Origin: Escherichia coli
GTDB lineage: Bacteria > Pseudomonadota > Gammaproteobacteria > Enterobacterales > Enterobacteriaceae
DNA: 64,000 bases
Assembly: GCF_003790525.1 (NCBI RefSeq)
Contig: NZ_CP033635.1
Direction: 5' to 3' (one strand)
How positions within the stretch are numbered: position 1 is the first letter of the stretch; every line of letters begins with the position of its first letter. Positions 21,001 to 24,000 of this stretch are shown here, one piece after another. The position numbers are program-made.

Positions 21001-24000
21001 TGCATCACTCTGAATTATCGGTTTCCCAGCTTTATGCCTTATTACAACTGCGTTGCGCGGTGTTTGTTGTTGAGCAGAATTGCCCTTATCAGGATATCGA
21101 TGGTGATGATTTGACGAGGGATAATCGCCATATTCTCGGTTGGAAAAATGATGAACTGGTGGCGTATGCGAGGATTCTGAAAAGTGATGATGATCTTGAA
21201 CCGGTCGTTATTGGTCGGGTGATTGTCAGTGAAGCGTTGCGTGGCGAAAAAGTGGGGCAGCAGCTGATGAGTAAAACACTCGAAACATGCGCGCACCACT
21301 GGCCTGATAAGCCTGTTTACCTCGGGGCGCAGGCGCATCTGCAAAACTTCTACCAAAGTTTTGGCTTTATCCCTGTGACGGAGGTCTATGAAGAAGATGG
21401 TATCCCACACATTGGGATGGCACGCGAGGTAATTCAGGCGTAATCAATAACCATTGTCTATAGTTAGTGACAGGTTTTACGCAAATGGAGAACGAGAATG
21501 TCTAATCAGTTTGGTGATACACGTATCGATGACGACCTGACGCTGCTTAGTGAAACACTGGAAGAGGTGCTCCGCTCCTCTGGCGATCCCGCCGATCAGA
21601 AATATGTTGAGCTGAAAGCGCGTGCAGAAAAAGCGCTGGATGATGTGAAAAAACGGGTTAGCCAGGCTTCAGACAGTTATTACTATCGGGCGAAGCAGGC
21701 AGTTTATCGTGCTGATGACTACGTCCACGAAAAACCCTGGCAAGGAATTGGTGTGGGTGCGGCCGTTGGGCTGGTACTAGGACTGTTGCTGGCACGCCGT
21801 TAAAACCTCCCTACACCGGGGTACTGCATTTTTTTTGTCGTACCCCGTATAATGTGAGGCTTTTAACAGGGAGAGGTCCGCGTGCAATCACTTACTACGG
21901 CGCTGGAAAATCTACTGCGCCATTTGTCGCAAGAGATTCCGGCGACACCCGGCATTCGGGTTATCGATATTCCTTTCCCTCTCAAAGACGCTTTTGATGC
22001 CTTGAACTGGCTGGCCAGTCAGCAGGTGTATCCGCAATTCTACTGGCAACAACGTAATGGTGATGAAGAAGCTGCCGTCCTGGGTGCGATAACCCGTTTT
22101 ACGTCGTTGGACCAGGCACAACGTTTTCTTCGCCAGCACCCGGAACACGCCGACTTACGCATCTGGGGGTTGAATGCGTTTGACCCGTCGCAGGGCAATT
22201 TACTTTTACCACGCCTCGAATGGCGACGCTGTGGCGGTAAAGCCACGCTGCGGCTGACGCTATTCAGCGAAAGATCCCTTCAGCATGATGCGATTAAGGC
22301 AAAAGAATTTATCGCCACACTGGTGAGTATTAAACCCTTGCCTGGGTTACATTTAACCACCACCCGAGAACAACACTGGCCGGACAAAACGGGCTGGACG
22401 CAATTAATCGAACTGGCAACGAAAACCATCGCCGAAGGCGAGCTCGACAAAGTGGTGCTTGCTCGGGCAACTGACCTGCATTTCGCAAGTCCGGTCAATG
22501 CGGCGGCGATGATGGCTGCCAGTCGTCGACTGAATCTGAATTGCTACCATTTTTACATGGCCTTTGATGGCGAAAATGCTTTTCTTGGCTCTTCACCGGA
22601 ACGATTATGGTGGCGGCGTGACAAAGCGCTGCGTACTGAAGCGCTGGCGGGAACGGTAGCAAATCATCCTGATGATAAGCAGGCGCAGCGGTTGGGTGAG
22701 TGGCTGATGGCGGATGATAAAAACCAGCGCGAGAACATGTTGGTGGTGGAGGATATCTGCCAACGATTGCAGGCCGATACCCAGACGTTGGATGTTTTAC
22801 CGCCGCAGGTACTGCGTCTGCGTAAAGTGCAGCATCTTCGCCGCTGTATCTGGACTGCACTCAACAAAGCGGATGATGTGATCTGTTTACATCAGTTGCA
22901 GCCAACGGCAGCAGTTGCTGGCTTACCGCGCGATCTGGCGCGACAGTTTATCGCCCGTCACGAACCGTTCACCCGAGAATGGTACGCCGGTTCTGCGGGC
23001 TATCTCTCATTACAACAAAGCGAATTCTGCGTTTCCCTGCGCTCAGCAAAAATTAGCGGCAATGTCGTGCGTCTATATGCTGGCGCGGGCATTGTCCGTG
23101 GTTCCGACCCCGAGCAAGAGTGGCAGGAAATCGACAACAAAGCGGCAGGGCTGCGTACTTTATTACAAATGGAATAGTAATGAGTCGCATCATTACCGAT
23201 TCATATCAATAATCTATTTTTGTAGCTCCTTATACTTAGCCGCAATATTGATACCGGACAAACTCATGTCAGTAAGCGCATTTAACCGACGCTGGGCGGC
23301 GGTCATTCTGGAAGCATTAACGCGTCAAGGCGTCAGACACATCTGTATCGCCCCTGGCTCGCGTTCTACACCGTTAACGTTAGCGGCGGCGGAGAATTCC
23401 GCATTCATTCACCACACCCATTTCGATGAGCGTGGACTGGGGCATCTGGCGCTGGGGCTGGCGAAAGTCAGCAAGCAGCCGGTGGCGGTGATTGTGACCT
23501 CCGGCACGGCGGTAGCAAATCTCTATCCGGCACTGATTGAAGCCGGGTTAACCGGAGAAAAACTGATCCTGTTAACCGCCGATCGCCCGCCGGAGCTCAT
23601 TGACTGCGGCGCGAATCAGGCAATTCGTCAGCCGGGAATGTTCGCCTCTCACCCCACGCACAGTATTTCACTGCCGCGCCCGACCCAGGATATCCCCGCA
23701 CGTTGGCTGGTTTCTACCATCGACCATGCTCTCGGTACGCTTCATGCGGGCGGAGTCCATATCAACTGCCCGTTTGCTGAACCGCTGTATGGCGAAATGG
23801 ACGACACCGGGCTTAGCTGGCAACAGCGTCTGGGCGACTGGTGGCAGGACGATAAGCCGTGGCTGCGTGAAGCGCCTCGTCTGGAAAGTGAAAAACAGCG
23901 CGACTGGTTCTTCTGGCGACAAAAGCGCGGCGTGGTGGTTGCCGGGCGCATGAGTGCGGAAGAGGGCAAAAAAGTCGCACTGTGGGCGCAAACTCTTGGC

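What the first reader, a model, noticed from the sequence alone, without database searches (positions are those of the whole stretch)
21817..21853. Inverted repeat with a T8-containing loop between elaB and menF, immediately followed by a TATAAT
cggggtac ... gtaccccg (8-bp arms) enclose tgcattttttttgtc, and the 3' arm abuts a consensus -10 hexamer (21848-21853) about 30 bp before the menF GTG start. The structure could act as the elaB terminator and simultaneously occlude or define the menF promoter.
Basis: seen in the sequence. Interest (0 to 1): 0.2.

Follow-up and report, generated by a model that had tools for sequence, protein, structure and literature searches.

The report
elaB terminator hairpin inside menF promoter
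The inverted repeat is real: it forms the stem-loop at which E. coli elaB transcripts end, and the same DNA is the core promoter of the menaquinone gene menF, an ordinary compact arrangement that public datasets already map.

Summary
The window is E. coli. CGGGGTAC (21817-21824) and GTACCCCG (21840-21847) enclose a 15-nt loop with T8, and TATAAT (21848-21853) lies 28 nt before the menF GTG (21882). An 8-bp repeat alone is not unusual (about 19 expected per window), but this one is conserved in about 15 enterobacterial genera.

Published Term-seq and SMRT-Cappable-seq both place the dominant elaB 3' end at MG1655 2380674, which is window 21851, 4 nt past the stem and inside TATAAT. SMRT-Cappable-seq places a menF transcription start at 2380664, window 21861, 8 nt after TATAAT. 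So one 37-bp stretch encodes the elaB 3' stem-loop in RNA and the menF promoter in DNA: a weak -35 (CTGCAT) in the 5' arm, the loop and 3' arm as an 18-bp spacer, and the -10 as the terminator's A/U tail.

The terminator is non-canonical (no U-tract) and leaky (10 reads end, 16 read through). In an evolution experiment, all three ΔentC lines acquired C>T at 21824 or 21827 and raised men mRNA 4-7-fold. C21824T creates TTGCAT, a -35 improvement.

RegulonDB is cited as predicting an attenuator here. Interest is low to moderate.

The parts
20960..20960 (+). Transcription start of the elaA-elaB transcript (MG1655 2381565)
   Evidence: SMRT-Cappable-seq tables, converted with menF start 2380643 = window 21882.
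21498..21803 (+). elaB coding sequence (101 aa); stop codon TAA at 21801-21803
   Evidence: ORF list; RefSeq annotation of identical K-12 sequence.
21799..21809 (+). 5' strand of an Escherichia-specific outer helix (GTTAAAACCTC); pairs with 21856-21867 in read-through RNA
   Evidence: Minimum-free-energy fold of 21790-21885: -39 kcal/mol, z = -3.93. Also seen in other Escherichia loci.
21806..21812 (+). CCTCCCT, an anti-Shine-Dalgarno-like motif complementary to the menF SD (AGGGAG)
   Evidence: CTCCCT is conserved in about 27-29 of 31 aligned sequences. It pairs with the SD in the predicted fold of most non-Escherichia genera. Its function is inferred, not shown.
21817..21847 (+). Stem-loop at the 3' end of elaB mRNA. 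The 5' arm is 21817-21828, the loop is the U-run, and the 3' arm is 21836-21847. It equals positions -44 to -14 of the menF promoter
   Evidence: Conserved in 31 distinct sequences with median dG -17.9 kcal/mol.
21824..21829 (+). Weak -35-like hexamer CTGCAT, 18 bp upstream of the -10. 21824 and 21827 are the sites of adaptive C>T mutations (menF -58 and -55)
   Evidence: PWM scan. Mutations from PMC5892946, mapped with BW25113 sequence. CTGC is conserved more strongly than its pairing partner.
21829..21836 (+). T8 run: the hairpin loop in RNA and the upstream half of the promoter spacer in DNA
   Evidence: T8 is essentially fixed in E. coli: the T7 haplotype occurs in 12 of 5421 records. The loop is T-rich but variable in other genera, and its length is conserved.
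21839..21839 (+). Common A/C polymorphism. C (this window) breaks one stem pair; A (K-12) gives a 12-bp stem
   Evidence: Exact-haplotype counts are 4060 (A) against 1293 (C) of 5421 records. dG is -20.9 against -16.6 kcal/mol.
21848..21853 (+). TATAAT: the -10 hexamer of the menF promoter and, as UAUAAU, the tail of the elaB terminator hairpin
   Evidence: Conserved across all hairpin-type genera and in the outgroups (TATAAT; TATACT or TATAGT in a few).
21851..21851 (+). Dominant 3' end of elaA-elaB transcripts (...GUACCCCGUAUA-3'), MG1655 2380674
   Evidence: Term-seq supplementary file 1 of PMC7815308: 54,112 and 221,851 reads in the two rows shown. The same coordinate is a transcript end in SMRT-Cappable-seq. 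Coordinates verified.
21856..21867 (+). 3' strand of the outer helix (GAGGCTTTTAAC); spans the menF transcription start
21861..21861 (+). menF (menFD...) transcription start, MG1655 2380664, 8 nt after the -10 and at the start of a conserved T-run
   Evidence: SMRT-Cappable-seq operon table of PMC6131387.
21868..21876 (+). menF Shine-Dalgarno region AGGGAGAGG
   Evidence: Sequence; near-invariant in alignment A2.
21882..23177 (+). menF coding sequence (isochorismate synthase, GTG start)

Best explanation
The inverted repeat encodes the 3'-terminal stem-loop of the elaA-elaB mRNA, and the same DNA is the sigma-70 core promoter of menFDHBCE.

Shown from published mapping: elaB transcripts end at 21851, 4 nt past the stem and inside the TATAAT. 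About 40% of elaA-initiated long reads stop there and the rest read through. menF transcripts start at 21861.

Inferred: RNA polymerase coming from elaB transcribes the G+C-rich 12-bp (K-12) or 8+3-bp (this window) hairpin while holding only a weak A/U-rich hybrid (UAUAAUGU). Part of the complexes are released there. This would be a leaky, non-canonical intrinsic terminator whose tail is the -10 hexamer.

On the DNA, the 5' arm carries the weak -35 (CTGCAT, -37 to -32). The loop and 3' arm form the 18-bp spacer. The abutting TATAAT is the -10. This double use would explain why arm sequences, total hairpin length and the hexamer are almost frozen across about 15 genera while the loop sequence drifts.

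A likely extra layer, not shown: a C/U-rich segment just upstream of the hairpin can pair with the menF SD and start region in read-through RNA. If so, menF would be translated mainly from its own promoter's transcripts.
For: Anatomy.

3' end: Term-seq lists a primary elaB 3' end at 2380674(-), with three occurrences of elaB in the three-condition file. SMRT-Cappable-seq gives the same end coordinate, with 30 reads at the start site, 10 ending there and 16 passing through. Coordinates were converted with the MG1655 annotation.

Transcription start: 2380664 for b2265|b2264 and b2265|b2264|b2263, plus a read-through operon b2267|b2266|b2265.

Conservation: the hairpin plus CCGTATAAT is kept in Escherichia, Citrobacter, Salmonella, Enterobacter, Leclercia, Lelliottia, Silvania, Phytobacter, Kosakonia, Trabulsiella, Yokenella and others. 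Median hairpin dG is -17.9 kcal/mol. There are almost no indels inside the hairpin.

Promoter genetics: 3 of 3 independently evolved entC-deletion lines carry C>T at window 21824 (twice) or 21827, with menF up by log2 2.0-2.9 and menD, menH and menB also up. C21824T turns CTGCAT into TTGCAT, raising the PWM score from 7.95 to 11.7 bits. If only about 40% of transcripts terminate, loss of termination could raise read-through at most about 1.6-fold, which is too little for a 4-7-fold rise. That favours a promoter effect.

Outgroups: Cedecea, Atlantibacter, Franconibacter and Enterobacter sp. R1 keep ACGTATAAT but place a separate elaB terminator hairpin upstream, with a T9 tract in Cedecea and Enterobacter sp. 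R1. So the -10 is the older, independently constrained element.
Against: - There is no U-tract. The tail T-score is 1.64, against 5.5-5.7 for the outgroup terminators. The consensus terminator scan does not call this hairpin, and Yan et al. list it only as 'novelTTS'.
- A 3' end 4 nt past a stable stem is also what exonuclease trimming of longer transcripts would leave.
- The -35 is poor (2 of 6), and the promoter scan finds nothing.
- The reported start nucleotide is U, which is unusual, and only one start-site dataset could be consulted.
- Column-wise covariation in the stem is weak because the core GGGTAC/GTACCC never varies, and RNAalifold does not recover the hairpin. Comparative data alone therefore cannot separate RNA-level from DNA-level selection.
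- C21827T is not explained by the -35 matrix (+0.7 bits).
- For E. coli itself, predicted SD accessibility is the same in read-through and promoter-initiated RNA (0.56 against 0.57).
Confidence: 0.72

Rival explanations
1. The hairpin is a protective 3' stem, not a terminator. Polymerase reads into menF and stops further downstream (by Rho or otherwise), and 3'-to-5' exonucleases trim back to the stable stem, leaving the end at 21851.
For: There is no U-tract and the terminator scan does not call the hairpin. The end lies only 4 nt past the stem. Read-through transcripts in SMRT-Cappable-seq end a median of 199 nt downstream. The possible sequestration of the menF SD in read-through RNA would leave that RNA untranslated and open to Rho. 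Dar and Sorek 2018 (PMC6061677, abstract seen) describe this class of 3' ends.
Against: Neither elaB nor menF appears in the Rho-termination or 5'-UTR tables of Adams et al. (all three occurrences of elaB are in file 1, and menF appears in none). In SMRT-Cappable-seq, 0 reads end within 50 bp downstream of the site, so there is no ladder of trimming intermediates. An A/U-rich tail after a -17 to -21 kcal/mol stem can support partial intrinsic termination (established knowledge).
Confidence: 0.25
2. The palindrome is mainly a DNA operator for a dimeric repressor that overlaps the -35 and spacer of the menF promoter. The evolved C>T mutations relieve repression.
For: The 5' arm GGTACTGC is conserved beyond what pairing needs: C at 21827 is conserved in about 90% of sequences, but its partner pairs in only 13 of 31. 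Arm-to-arm spacing is fixed while the loop sequence varies. The palindrome centre lies at about -29, a typical repressor position. Both de-repressing mutations hit conserved C's in one half-site. A PmenFDHBCE reporter is 70-105-fold lower in an sdiA-dependent way in Enterobacter cloacae.
Against: The sources read name no binding factor or motif. The SdiA effect is absent in E. coli, is weakly positive in Salmonella, and may be indirect. The 3' half-site is less conserved than the 5' half. The mapped RNA 3' end already gives the repeat a function. C21824T is fully explained as creating TTG. The resemblance to a LexA box fails on spacing (N11 instead of N10).
Confidence: 0.12
3. The element acts chiefly as a translational attenuator of menF, as the RegulonDB prediction cited by PMC5892946 holds. 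RNA pairing around the hairpin hides the menF SD and start codon, and the evolved mutations open it.
For: RegulonDB is cited as predicting a translation attenuation site here. The upstream CUCCCU and flanks pair with AGGGAG and GCGUG in most genera, with different flanking registers. Mean SD unpaired probability is 0.25 in read-through RNA against 0.47 in promoter-initiated RNA. Duplex energies are lower than shuffled controls in most species.
Against: Transcripts from the mapped start at 21861 contain neither the hairpin nor the anti-SD, so they cannot be attenuated this way. The mutations raise mRNA of the whole operon and lie in the hairpin's 5' arm, not in the anti-SD. In E. coli the predicted SD accessibility is unchanged. 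Individual z-scores are mostly modest, and the species are not independent.
Confidence: 0.2
4. It is a chance inverted repeat next to a chance TATAAT, with no function.
For: 8-bp inverted repeats of this type are expected about 19 times per 64 kb. The motif is not repeated elsewhere in the window.
Against: There is conservation across about 15 genera. Transcript 3' and 5' ends are mapped exactly here. Adaptive mutations recur in it.
Confidence: 0.01

Closest known systems
Rho-independent (intrinsic) terminators of E. coli
   Same: It is a G+C-rich stem-loop directly after a stop codon. The in vivo RNA 3' end lies a few nt past the stem. The tail forms a weak A/U-rich hybrid.
   Different: There is no U-tract (UAUAAUGU). 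The loop is long (7-15 nt) and termination is only about 40%. The tail is the next gene's -10 hexamer, and the stem arms are the next gene's -35 region and spacer.
Stem-loop-protected 3' ends of Rho-terminated transcripts (Dar and Sorek 2018, PMC6061677)
   Same: It is a stable hairpin without a U-tract, with the 3' end immediately downstream.
   Different: No Rho-dependent region is reported at elaB or menF in the one dataset I could query. No reads end within 50 bp downstream of the site.
Sigma-70 promoters with a consensus -10 and a weak -35
   Same: There is a perfect TATAAT, a start 8 nt downstream, and an 18-bp spacer. A single C>T that creates TTG at the -35 raises expression.
   Different: The -35 matches only 2 of 6 positions. 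The whole upstream half of the promoter is also an RNA hairpin belonging to the preceding transcript.
Long-range anti-SD pairing / predicted translational attenuators (RegulonDB attenuator predictions)
   Same: A C/U-rich segment upstream is complementary to the downstream gene's SD and start codon, and it encloses a hairpin.
   Different: It can act only on read-through RNA, not on transcripts from the gene's own promoter. It is not predicted to change SD accessibility in E. coli itself, and it is untested.
LexA SOS box (TACTG-N10-CAGTA)
   Same: TACTG ... (C/T)AGTA half-sites sit inside the arms.
   Different: The spacing is N11 in essentially all genera, and K-12 has TAGTA in the right half. 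It is not a member.

Membership tests
Intrinsic (Rho-independent) terminator | Stable G+C-rich stem-loop in the nascent RNA | tested here: met
   dG is -16.6 kcal/mol (window allele) and -20.9 (K-12); the median over 31 distinct orthologous sequences is -17.9.
Intrinsic (Rho-independent) terminator | U-rich tract immediately 3' of the stem | tested here: not met
   The tail is UAUAAUGUGAGG. Its T-score is 1.64, against 5.5-5.7 for the outgroup elaB terminators. The consensus scan does not call this hairpin.
Intrinsic (Rho-independent) terminator | In vivo RNA 3' end within a few nt after the stem | tested here: met
   Two published datasets put the 3' end at MG1655 2380674 = window 21851, 4 nt past the stem.
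Intrinsic (Rho-independent) terminator | Factor-independent release in vitro; insensitive to Rho inhibition | not testable with these tools
   The only indirect evidence is that elaB and menF are absent from the Rho-region table of Adams et al..
Sigma-70 promoter | -10 hexamer close to TATAAT | tested here: met
   TATAAT at 21848-21853. It is conserved in all hairpin-type genera and in the outgroups.
Sigma-70 promoter | -35 hexamer close to TTGACA at 16-18 bp | tested here: not met
   The best candidate is CTGCAT at 18 bp (2 of 6). The scan requiring at least 4 of 6 finds none.
Sigma-70 promoter | Primary (5'-triphosphate) transcript start 6-9 nt downstream of the -10 | tested here: met
   SMRT-Cappable-seq start at 2380664 = window 21861, 8 nt after the hexamer. 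This is a single dataset.
Sigma-70 promoter | Mutations toward consensus raise expression | tested here: met
   Published C21824T (CTGCAT to TTGCAT) is associated with a 4-7-fold rise in men operon mRNA. A terminator effect has not been separated from this experimentally.
Translational attenuator / anti-SD structure | Upstream segment complementary to the SD and start codon, kept by covariation | tested here: inconclusive
   The core CUCCCU:AGGGAG is conserved but hardly varies. Flanking pairs covary in part (AU 10, GC 4 at columns 55/132), but their registers differ between clades. RNAalifold does not support it.
Translational attenuator / anti-SD structure | Reduced translation of the downstream gene when the structure forms | not testable with these tools
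   This needs translational fusions.
Palindromic repressor operator | Symmetric half-sites at fixed spacing overlapping the core promoter | tested here: inconclusive
   Spacing is fixed and the site overlaps -44 to -14. However, the 5' half is better conserved than the 3' half.
Palindromic repressor operator | A protein that binds it | not testable with these tools
   The papers read report none. The SdiA dependence in E. cloacae may be indirect.
LexA SOS box | CTG-N10-CAG spacing | tested here: not met
   The spacing is N11 in K-12 and in the aligned genera, and K-12 has TAG in the right half (sequences).
Rfam RNA families | Match to a curated covariance model | tested here: not met
   Only two chance-level snoRNA hits elsewhere in 20900-22400 at E <= 10.

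The most novel reading that the evidence does not exclude
The 37 bp may be a selected, dual-coded terminator-promoter module. The same bases would be read as RNA (the elaB 3' stem-loop with the -10 hexamer as its tail) and as DNA (the -35, spacer and -10 of menF). A flanking anti-SD segment would silence any read-through. Together these would insulate menaquinone synthesis from the strong sigma-S-driven elaB transcription. The arrangement is frozen across about 15 enterobacterial genera, and single-base changes in it are the adaptive route to more isochorismate synthase. A more speculative variant is that the conserved half-site GGTACTGC is also contacted by an unidentified repressor, which would explain C21827T and the sdiA-dependent repression in Enterobacter.
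Probability: 0.3. Interest if true: 0.45.

Novelty: already known. Interest (0 to 1): 0.28.

Why it matters
This case shows how tightly signals can be packed in a 78-bp bacterial intergenic region: one stretch ends one transcript and starts the next. It has three practical uses.

- It explains why this non-coding stretch is nearly invariant across genera.
- It gives a mechanistic reading of the recurrent menF(-58)/(-55) suppressor mutations in entC-deletion strains. At least the -58 change is best read as a -35 up-mutation rather than relief of a translational attenuator.
- It warns that terminator predictors requiring a U-tract, and promoter predictors requiring a -35, both miss a site that transcript mapping shows to be active.

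It does not reveal a new kind of mechanism.

Tried and rejected
- **Rfam:** a scan of 20900-22400 at E <= 10 found nothing relevant.
- **Consensus scan:** it called neither the hairpin as a terminator nor the promoter. It flagged only a weak 5-bp alternative stem, 21805-21822, which the mapped 3' end does not support.
- **Repeated element (REP-like):** GGGGTACTGCA with up to 2 mismatches occurs no more often than chance in the window.
- **Phase-variable T-run:** T8 is essentially fixed. The T7 haplotype occurs in 12 of 5421 records and may be homopolymer error.
- **Covariation proof of the RNA stem:** column-wise counts are weak because the core never varies. RNAalifold returned a different, trivial CCC:GGG consensus.
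- **Per-species anti-SD thermodynamics:** the direction is consistent but individual p-values are mostly 0.0-0.3, and there is no effect in E. coli itself.
- **LexA box resemblance:** rejected on spacing.
- **SdiA box:** no usable consensus exists.
- **Literature gaps:** Thomason 2015 dRNA-seq and Kroeger 2012 Salmonella start sites are not held. No supplement text is held for Dar and Sorek 2018 or the Rend-seq annotation paper. Neither the site nor the genes appear in the held parts of the Cappable-seq 2016 supplement or the TERMITe supplement. The YdeO paper mentions elaB only as an induced gene.
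Full report
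**Identity of the window and check of the observation**

The segment is Escherichia coli. Window 21480-21960 is 100% identical to strain FDAARGOS_497 and 99.6% identical to K-12, and it is present in 5421 of 5426 complete genomes. The genes in order are rbn (-), elaA, elaB, menF and menD (+).

The inverted repeat is exactly as described:
- CGGGGTAC at 21817-21824 and GTACCCCG at 21840-21847.
- A 15-nt interval, tgcattttttttgtc, with T8 at 21829-21836.
- TATAAT at 21848-21853, abutting the 3' arm.
- The elaB stop codon at 21801-21803 and the menF GTG at 21882.

As RNA the stem is longer than 8 bp. This window has 8 bp, one U.C mismatch, then 3 bp (-16.6 kcal/mol). K-12 has A at 21839 and a continuous 12-bp stem with a U7 loop (-20.9 kcal/mol).

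A perfect 8-bp inverted repeat is not significant on its own. The window has 40, against 19 +/- 5 expected. The evidence that this one is real comes from conservation and from experiments.

**Published transcript mapping**

*The 3' end.* The Term-seq tables of Adams et al. 2021 (PMC7815308, supplementary file 1) list a dominant 'primary' 3' end for elaB at MG1655 2380674 on the minus strand. elaB occurs three times in the three-condition file, and the two rows shown have 54,112 and 221,851 reads. The 61-nt sequence printed there begins at the T of the elaB stop codon (2380724), so the 3' end is its 51st base. With the menF start at 2380643, this is window 21851. The RNA therefore ends ...GUACCCCGUAUA-3', 4 nt after the stem and inside the TATAAT.

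SMRT-Cappable-seq (Yan et al. 2018, PMC6131387) gives the same coordinate as the end of elaA-elaB transcripts that start at 2381565 (window 20960). In M9 medium there are 30 reads at the start site, 10 ending at the site, 16 passing through and 0 ending within the next 50 bp. The median read-through is 199 nt, and the site is labelled 'novelTTS'.

*The 5' end.* The same study lists a transcription start at 2380664 for b2265|b2264 and b2265|b2264|b2263 (menF-menD-menH), and a read-through unit b2267|b2266|b2265. 2380664 is window 21861, 8 nt after the last T of TATAAT.

It is not met: both kinds of end map here, 10 nt apart.

**Anatomy that follows from the mapping**

Relative to the start at 21861:
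- The hairpin occupies -44 to -14.
- The TATAAT occupies -13 to -8.
- The elaB 3' end lies at -10.
- The best -35 candidate is CTGCAT at 21824-21829, with an 18-bp spacer.

So the 5' arm holds the -35. The loop (including the T8) and the 3' arm form the spacer. The -10 hexamer, read as UAUAAU, is the terminator's tail.

Both signals are non-canonical. The tail has no U-tract: its T-score is 1.64, against 5.5-5.7 for the canonical elaB terminators of the outgroup species. The -35 matches only 2 of 6 positions. The consensus scan calls neither one. About 40% termination in the long-read data fits a weak terminator.

**Conservation**

A scan of one genome per species with ElaB returned 80 loci. 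About 45 of them keep elaB followed by menF.

In Escherichia, Citrobacter, Salmonella, Enterobacter, Leclercia, Silvania, Lelliottia, Huaxiibacter, Pseudenterobacter, Phytobacter, Kosakonia, Trabulsiella, Yokenella and Intestinirhabdus the intergenic region contains the same module: CTCCCT-N4-GGGGTACTGC-loop-(G)CAGTACCCCG-TATAAT-GTGAGGTTTTTAAC-AGGGAG...GTG. Over 31 distinct sequences the median hairpin dG is -17.9 kcal/mol.

The loop sequence varies, but there are almost no indels, so the distance from the 5' arm to the -10 is fixed. The 5' arm GGTACTGC is more conserved than pairing requires. C at 21827 is conserved in about 90% of sequences, yet its partner forms a pair in only 13 of 31. That fits the 5' arm having a second, DNA-level role as the -35.

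Cedecea, Atlantibacter, Franconibacter and Enterobacter sp. R1 lack this hairpin. They keep (G)ACCACGTATAAT and place a separate elaB terminator hairpin upstream of it, followed by a T9 tract in Cedecea and Enterobacter sp. R1. The -10 is therefore the older element, and the overlapping hairpin is a derived, compact arrangement.

Covariation cannot prove the RNA stem. The core GGGTAC/GTACCC never varies, and RNAalifold does not recover the hairpin.

**Genetic evidence from the literature**

In an evolution experiment with BW25113 deletion mutants (PMC5892946), all three independently evolved entC-deletion suppressor lines carry G>A at 2,374,180 (menF -58, in two lines) or 2,374,177 (menF -55). 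menF mRNA is up by log2 2.0-2.9, and menD, menH and menB are also up.

I mapped these positions on the BW25113 sequence.

The authors describe the site as a 'predicted translation attenuation site' citing RegulonDB 9.0, and elsewhere as 'the menF promoter'.

My calculations:

| Allele | Hairpin dG (kcal/mol) | Effect on promoter score |
|---|---|---|
| K-12 wild type | -20.9 | CTGCAT-18-TATAAT, 7.95 bits |
| C21824T | -18.6 | creates TTGCAT, 11.7 bits |
| C21827T | -16.0 | about +0.7 bits |
| Natural A21839C (this window) | -16.6 | unchanged |

The natural A21839C allele is carried by 1293 of 5421 E. coli records, and it weakens the stem as much as C21827T does.

Termination is only about 40% to begin with, so abolishing it could raise read-through at most about 1.6-fold. 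That is not enough for a 4-7-fold rise. The -58 mutation is therefore best read as a -35 up-mutation, which in turn supports TATAAT as the working -10. The -55 mutation remains unexplained. Candidate explanations are a kinetic effect on hairpin nucleation, a new TTAAAA-16-TACTGT promoter (5.7 bits), or loss of a repressor contact.

**Flanking pairing**

In most genera the C/U-rich segment just 5' of the hairpin (CUCCCU plus flanks) is predicted to pair with the menF SD (AGGGAG) and often with the GCGUG around the start codon. The flanking sequences and pairing registers differ between clades. Mean predicted SD accessibility is 0.25 in read-through RNA against 0.47 in RNA starting at the mapped start site. 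Duplex energies are usually lower than shuffled or genomic controls.

In Escherichia the preferred partner is different. GUUAAAACCUC (21799-21809) pairs with GAGGCUUUUAAC (21856-21867), and the whole region folds at -39 kcal/mol with z = -3.93. SD accessibility is unchanged there (0.56 against 0.57).

This pairing can matter only for read-through transcripts. I treat it as a plausible but unproven second insulating layer. It is probably what the RegulonDB attenuator prediction reflects.

**Other leads**

A PmenFDHBCE reporter is 70-105-fold lower in an sdiA-dependent, AHL-independent way in Enterobacter cloacae. It is weakly up in Salmonella and unaffected in E. coli. No SdiA consensus exists for comparison. 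The arms contain TACTG-N11-(C/T)AGTA, one base too long for a LexA box. An operator role cannot be excluded, but nothing requires it.

**Verdict**

The hairpin marks the 3' end of elaB mRNA, and the abutting TATAAT is the menF -10. What is shown is the location of the RNA ends, the conservation, and the expression effect of point mutations. What is inferred is that the 3' end arises by weak intrinsic termination rather than trimming, that CTGCAT is the -35, and that the flanking pairing silences read-through.

The individual features are already in public resources: Term-seq and SMRT-Cappable-seq tables, a RegulonDB attenuator prediction as cited by PMC5892946, and a published set of suppressor mutations. 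The kind of element is ordinary. The only mildly notable point is the complete physical overlap, with the terminator tail being the -10 hexamer, and its conservation across many genera.

Noticed in passing
window 21799-21809 with 21856-21867: There is an Escherichia-specific outer helix: GTTAAAACCTC, which includes the elaB stop codon, pairs with GAGGCTTTTAAC, which spans the menF start. The whole intergenic region then folds into one long irregular hairpin (-39 kcal/mol, z = -3.93). E. albertii and Escherichia sp. L007 have lost CTCCCT but gained extra pairs (CCTCAC/GTGAGG).
   Followed up: partly
window 21658-21795, minus strand; SD-like at 21806-21812: An antisense 45-aa ORF with a GTG start lies inside the elaB 3' end. 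It is preceded 10 nt upstream by AGGGAGG, the reverse complement of the anti-SD motif, so it mirrors the menF translation start region. It is probably a by-product of the large inverted repeat, and the spacing is not conserved in Citrobacter or Salmonella.
   Followed up: no
window 21839: A common A/C polymorphism sits in the stem. A (K-12 type) occurs in 4060 of 5421 E. coli records and C (this window) in 1293. The C allele costs about 4 kcal/mol of hairpin stability, as much as the evolved C21827T mutation.
   Followed up: yes
window 21861-21864 (alignment A2 columns 114-117): The mapped menF start sits at the beginning of a conserved T4-5 run (GAGG[C/T]TTTTAAC). This resembles initially transcribed T-tracts that support UTP-sensitive reiterative transcription at pyrBI, codBA and upp. 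This is pure speculation.
   Followed up: no
L064 (Yokenella regensburgei) about 1865-1900: An extra perfect hairpin (GAACCTGCCTCAGGCAGGTTC) is inserted between the -10 region and the menF SD, lengthening the 5' UTR by about 25 nt.
   Followed up: no
L059 (Cedecea), L013 (Enterobacter sp. R1), L014 (Atlantibacter), L018 (Franconibacter): These outgroups lack the overlapping hairpin and have a separate elaB terminator hairpin upstream of a conserved ACGTATAAT; in Cedecea and Enterobacter sp. R1 it is followed by a T9 tract. The T-run in the E. coli loop lies at a similar distance from the -10 and may be a relic of that U-tract.
   Followed up: partly
window 21827: C21827 is conserved in about 90% of aligned sequences although its pairing partner is complementary in only 13 of 31. 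Its mutation to T de-represses the men operon. Neither hairpin stability nor the -35 matrix explains this well.
   Followed up: partly
orthologous menF promoter of Enterobacter cloacae (literature): A PmenFDHBCE reporter shows 70-105-fold sdiA-dependent, AHL-independent repression in E. cloacae but not in E. coli (PMC11619404). Whether this acts through the conserved palindrome is unknown.
   Followed up: partly
window 21480-21960 against E. coli genomes: One of 5422 matching records carries the elaB-menF segment on a plasmid record, and one genome has two copies.
   Followed up: no
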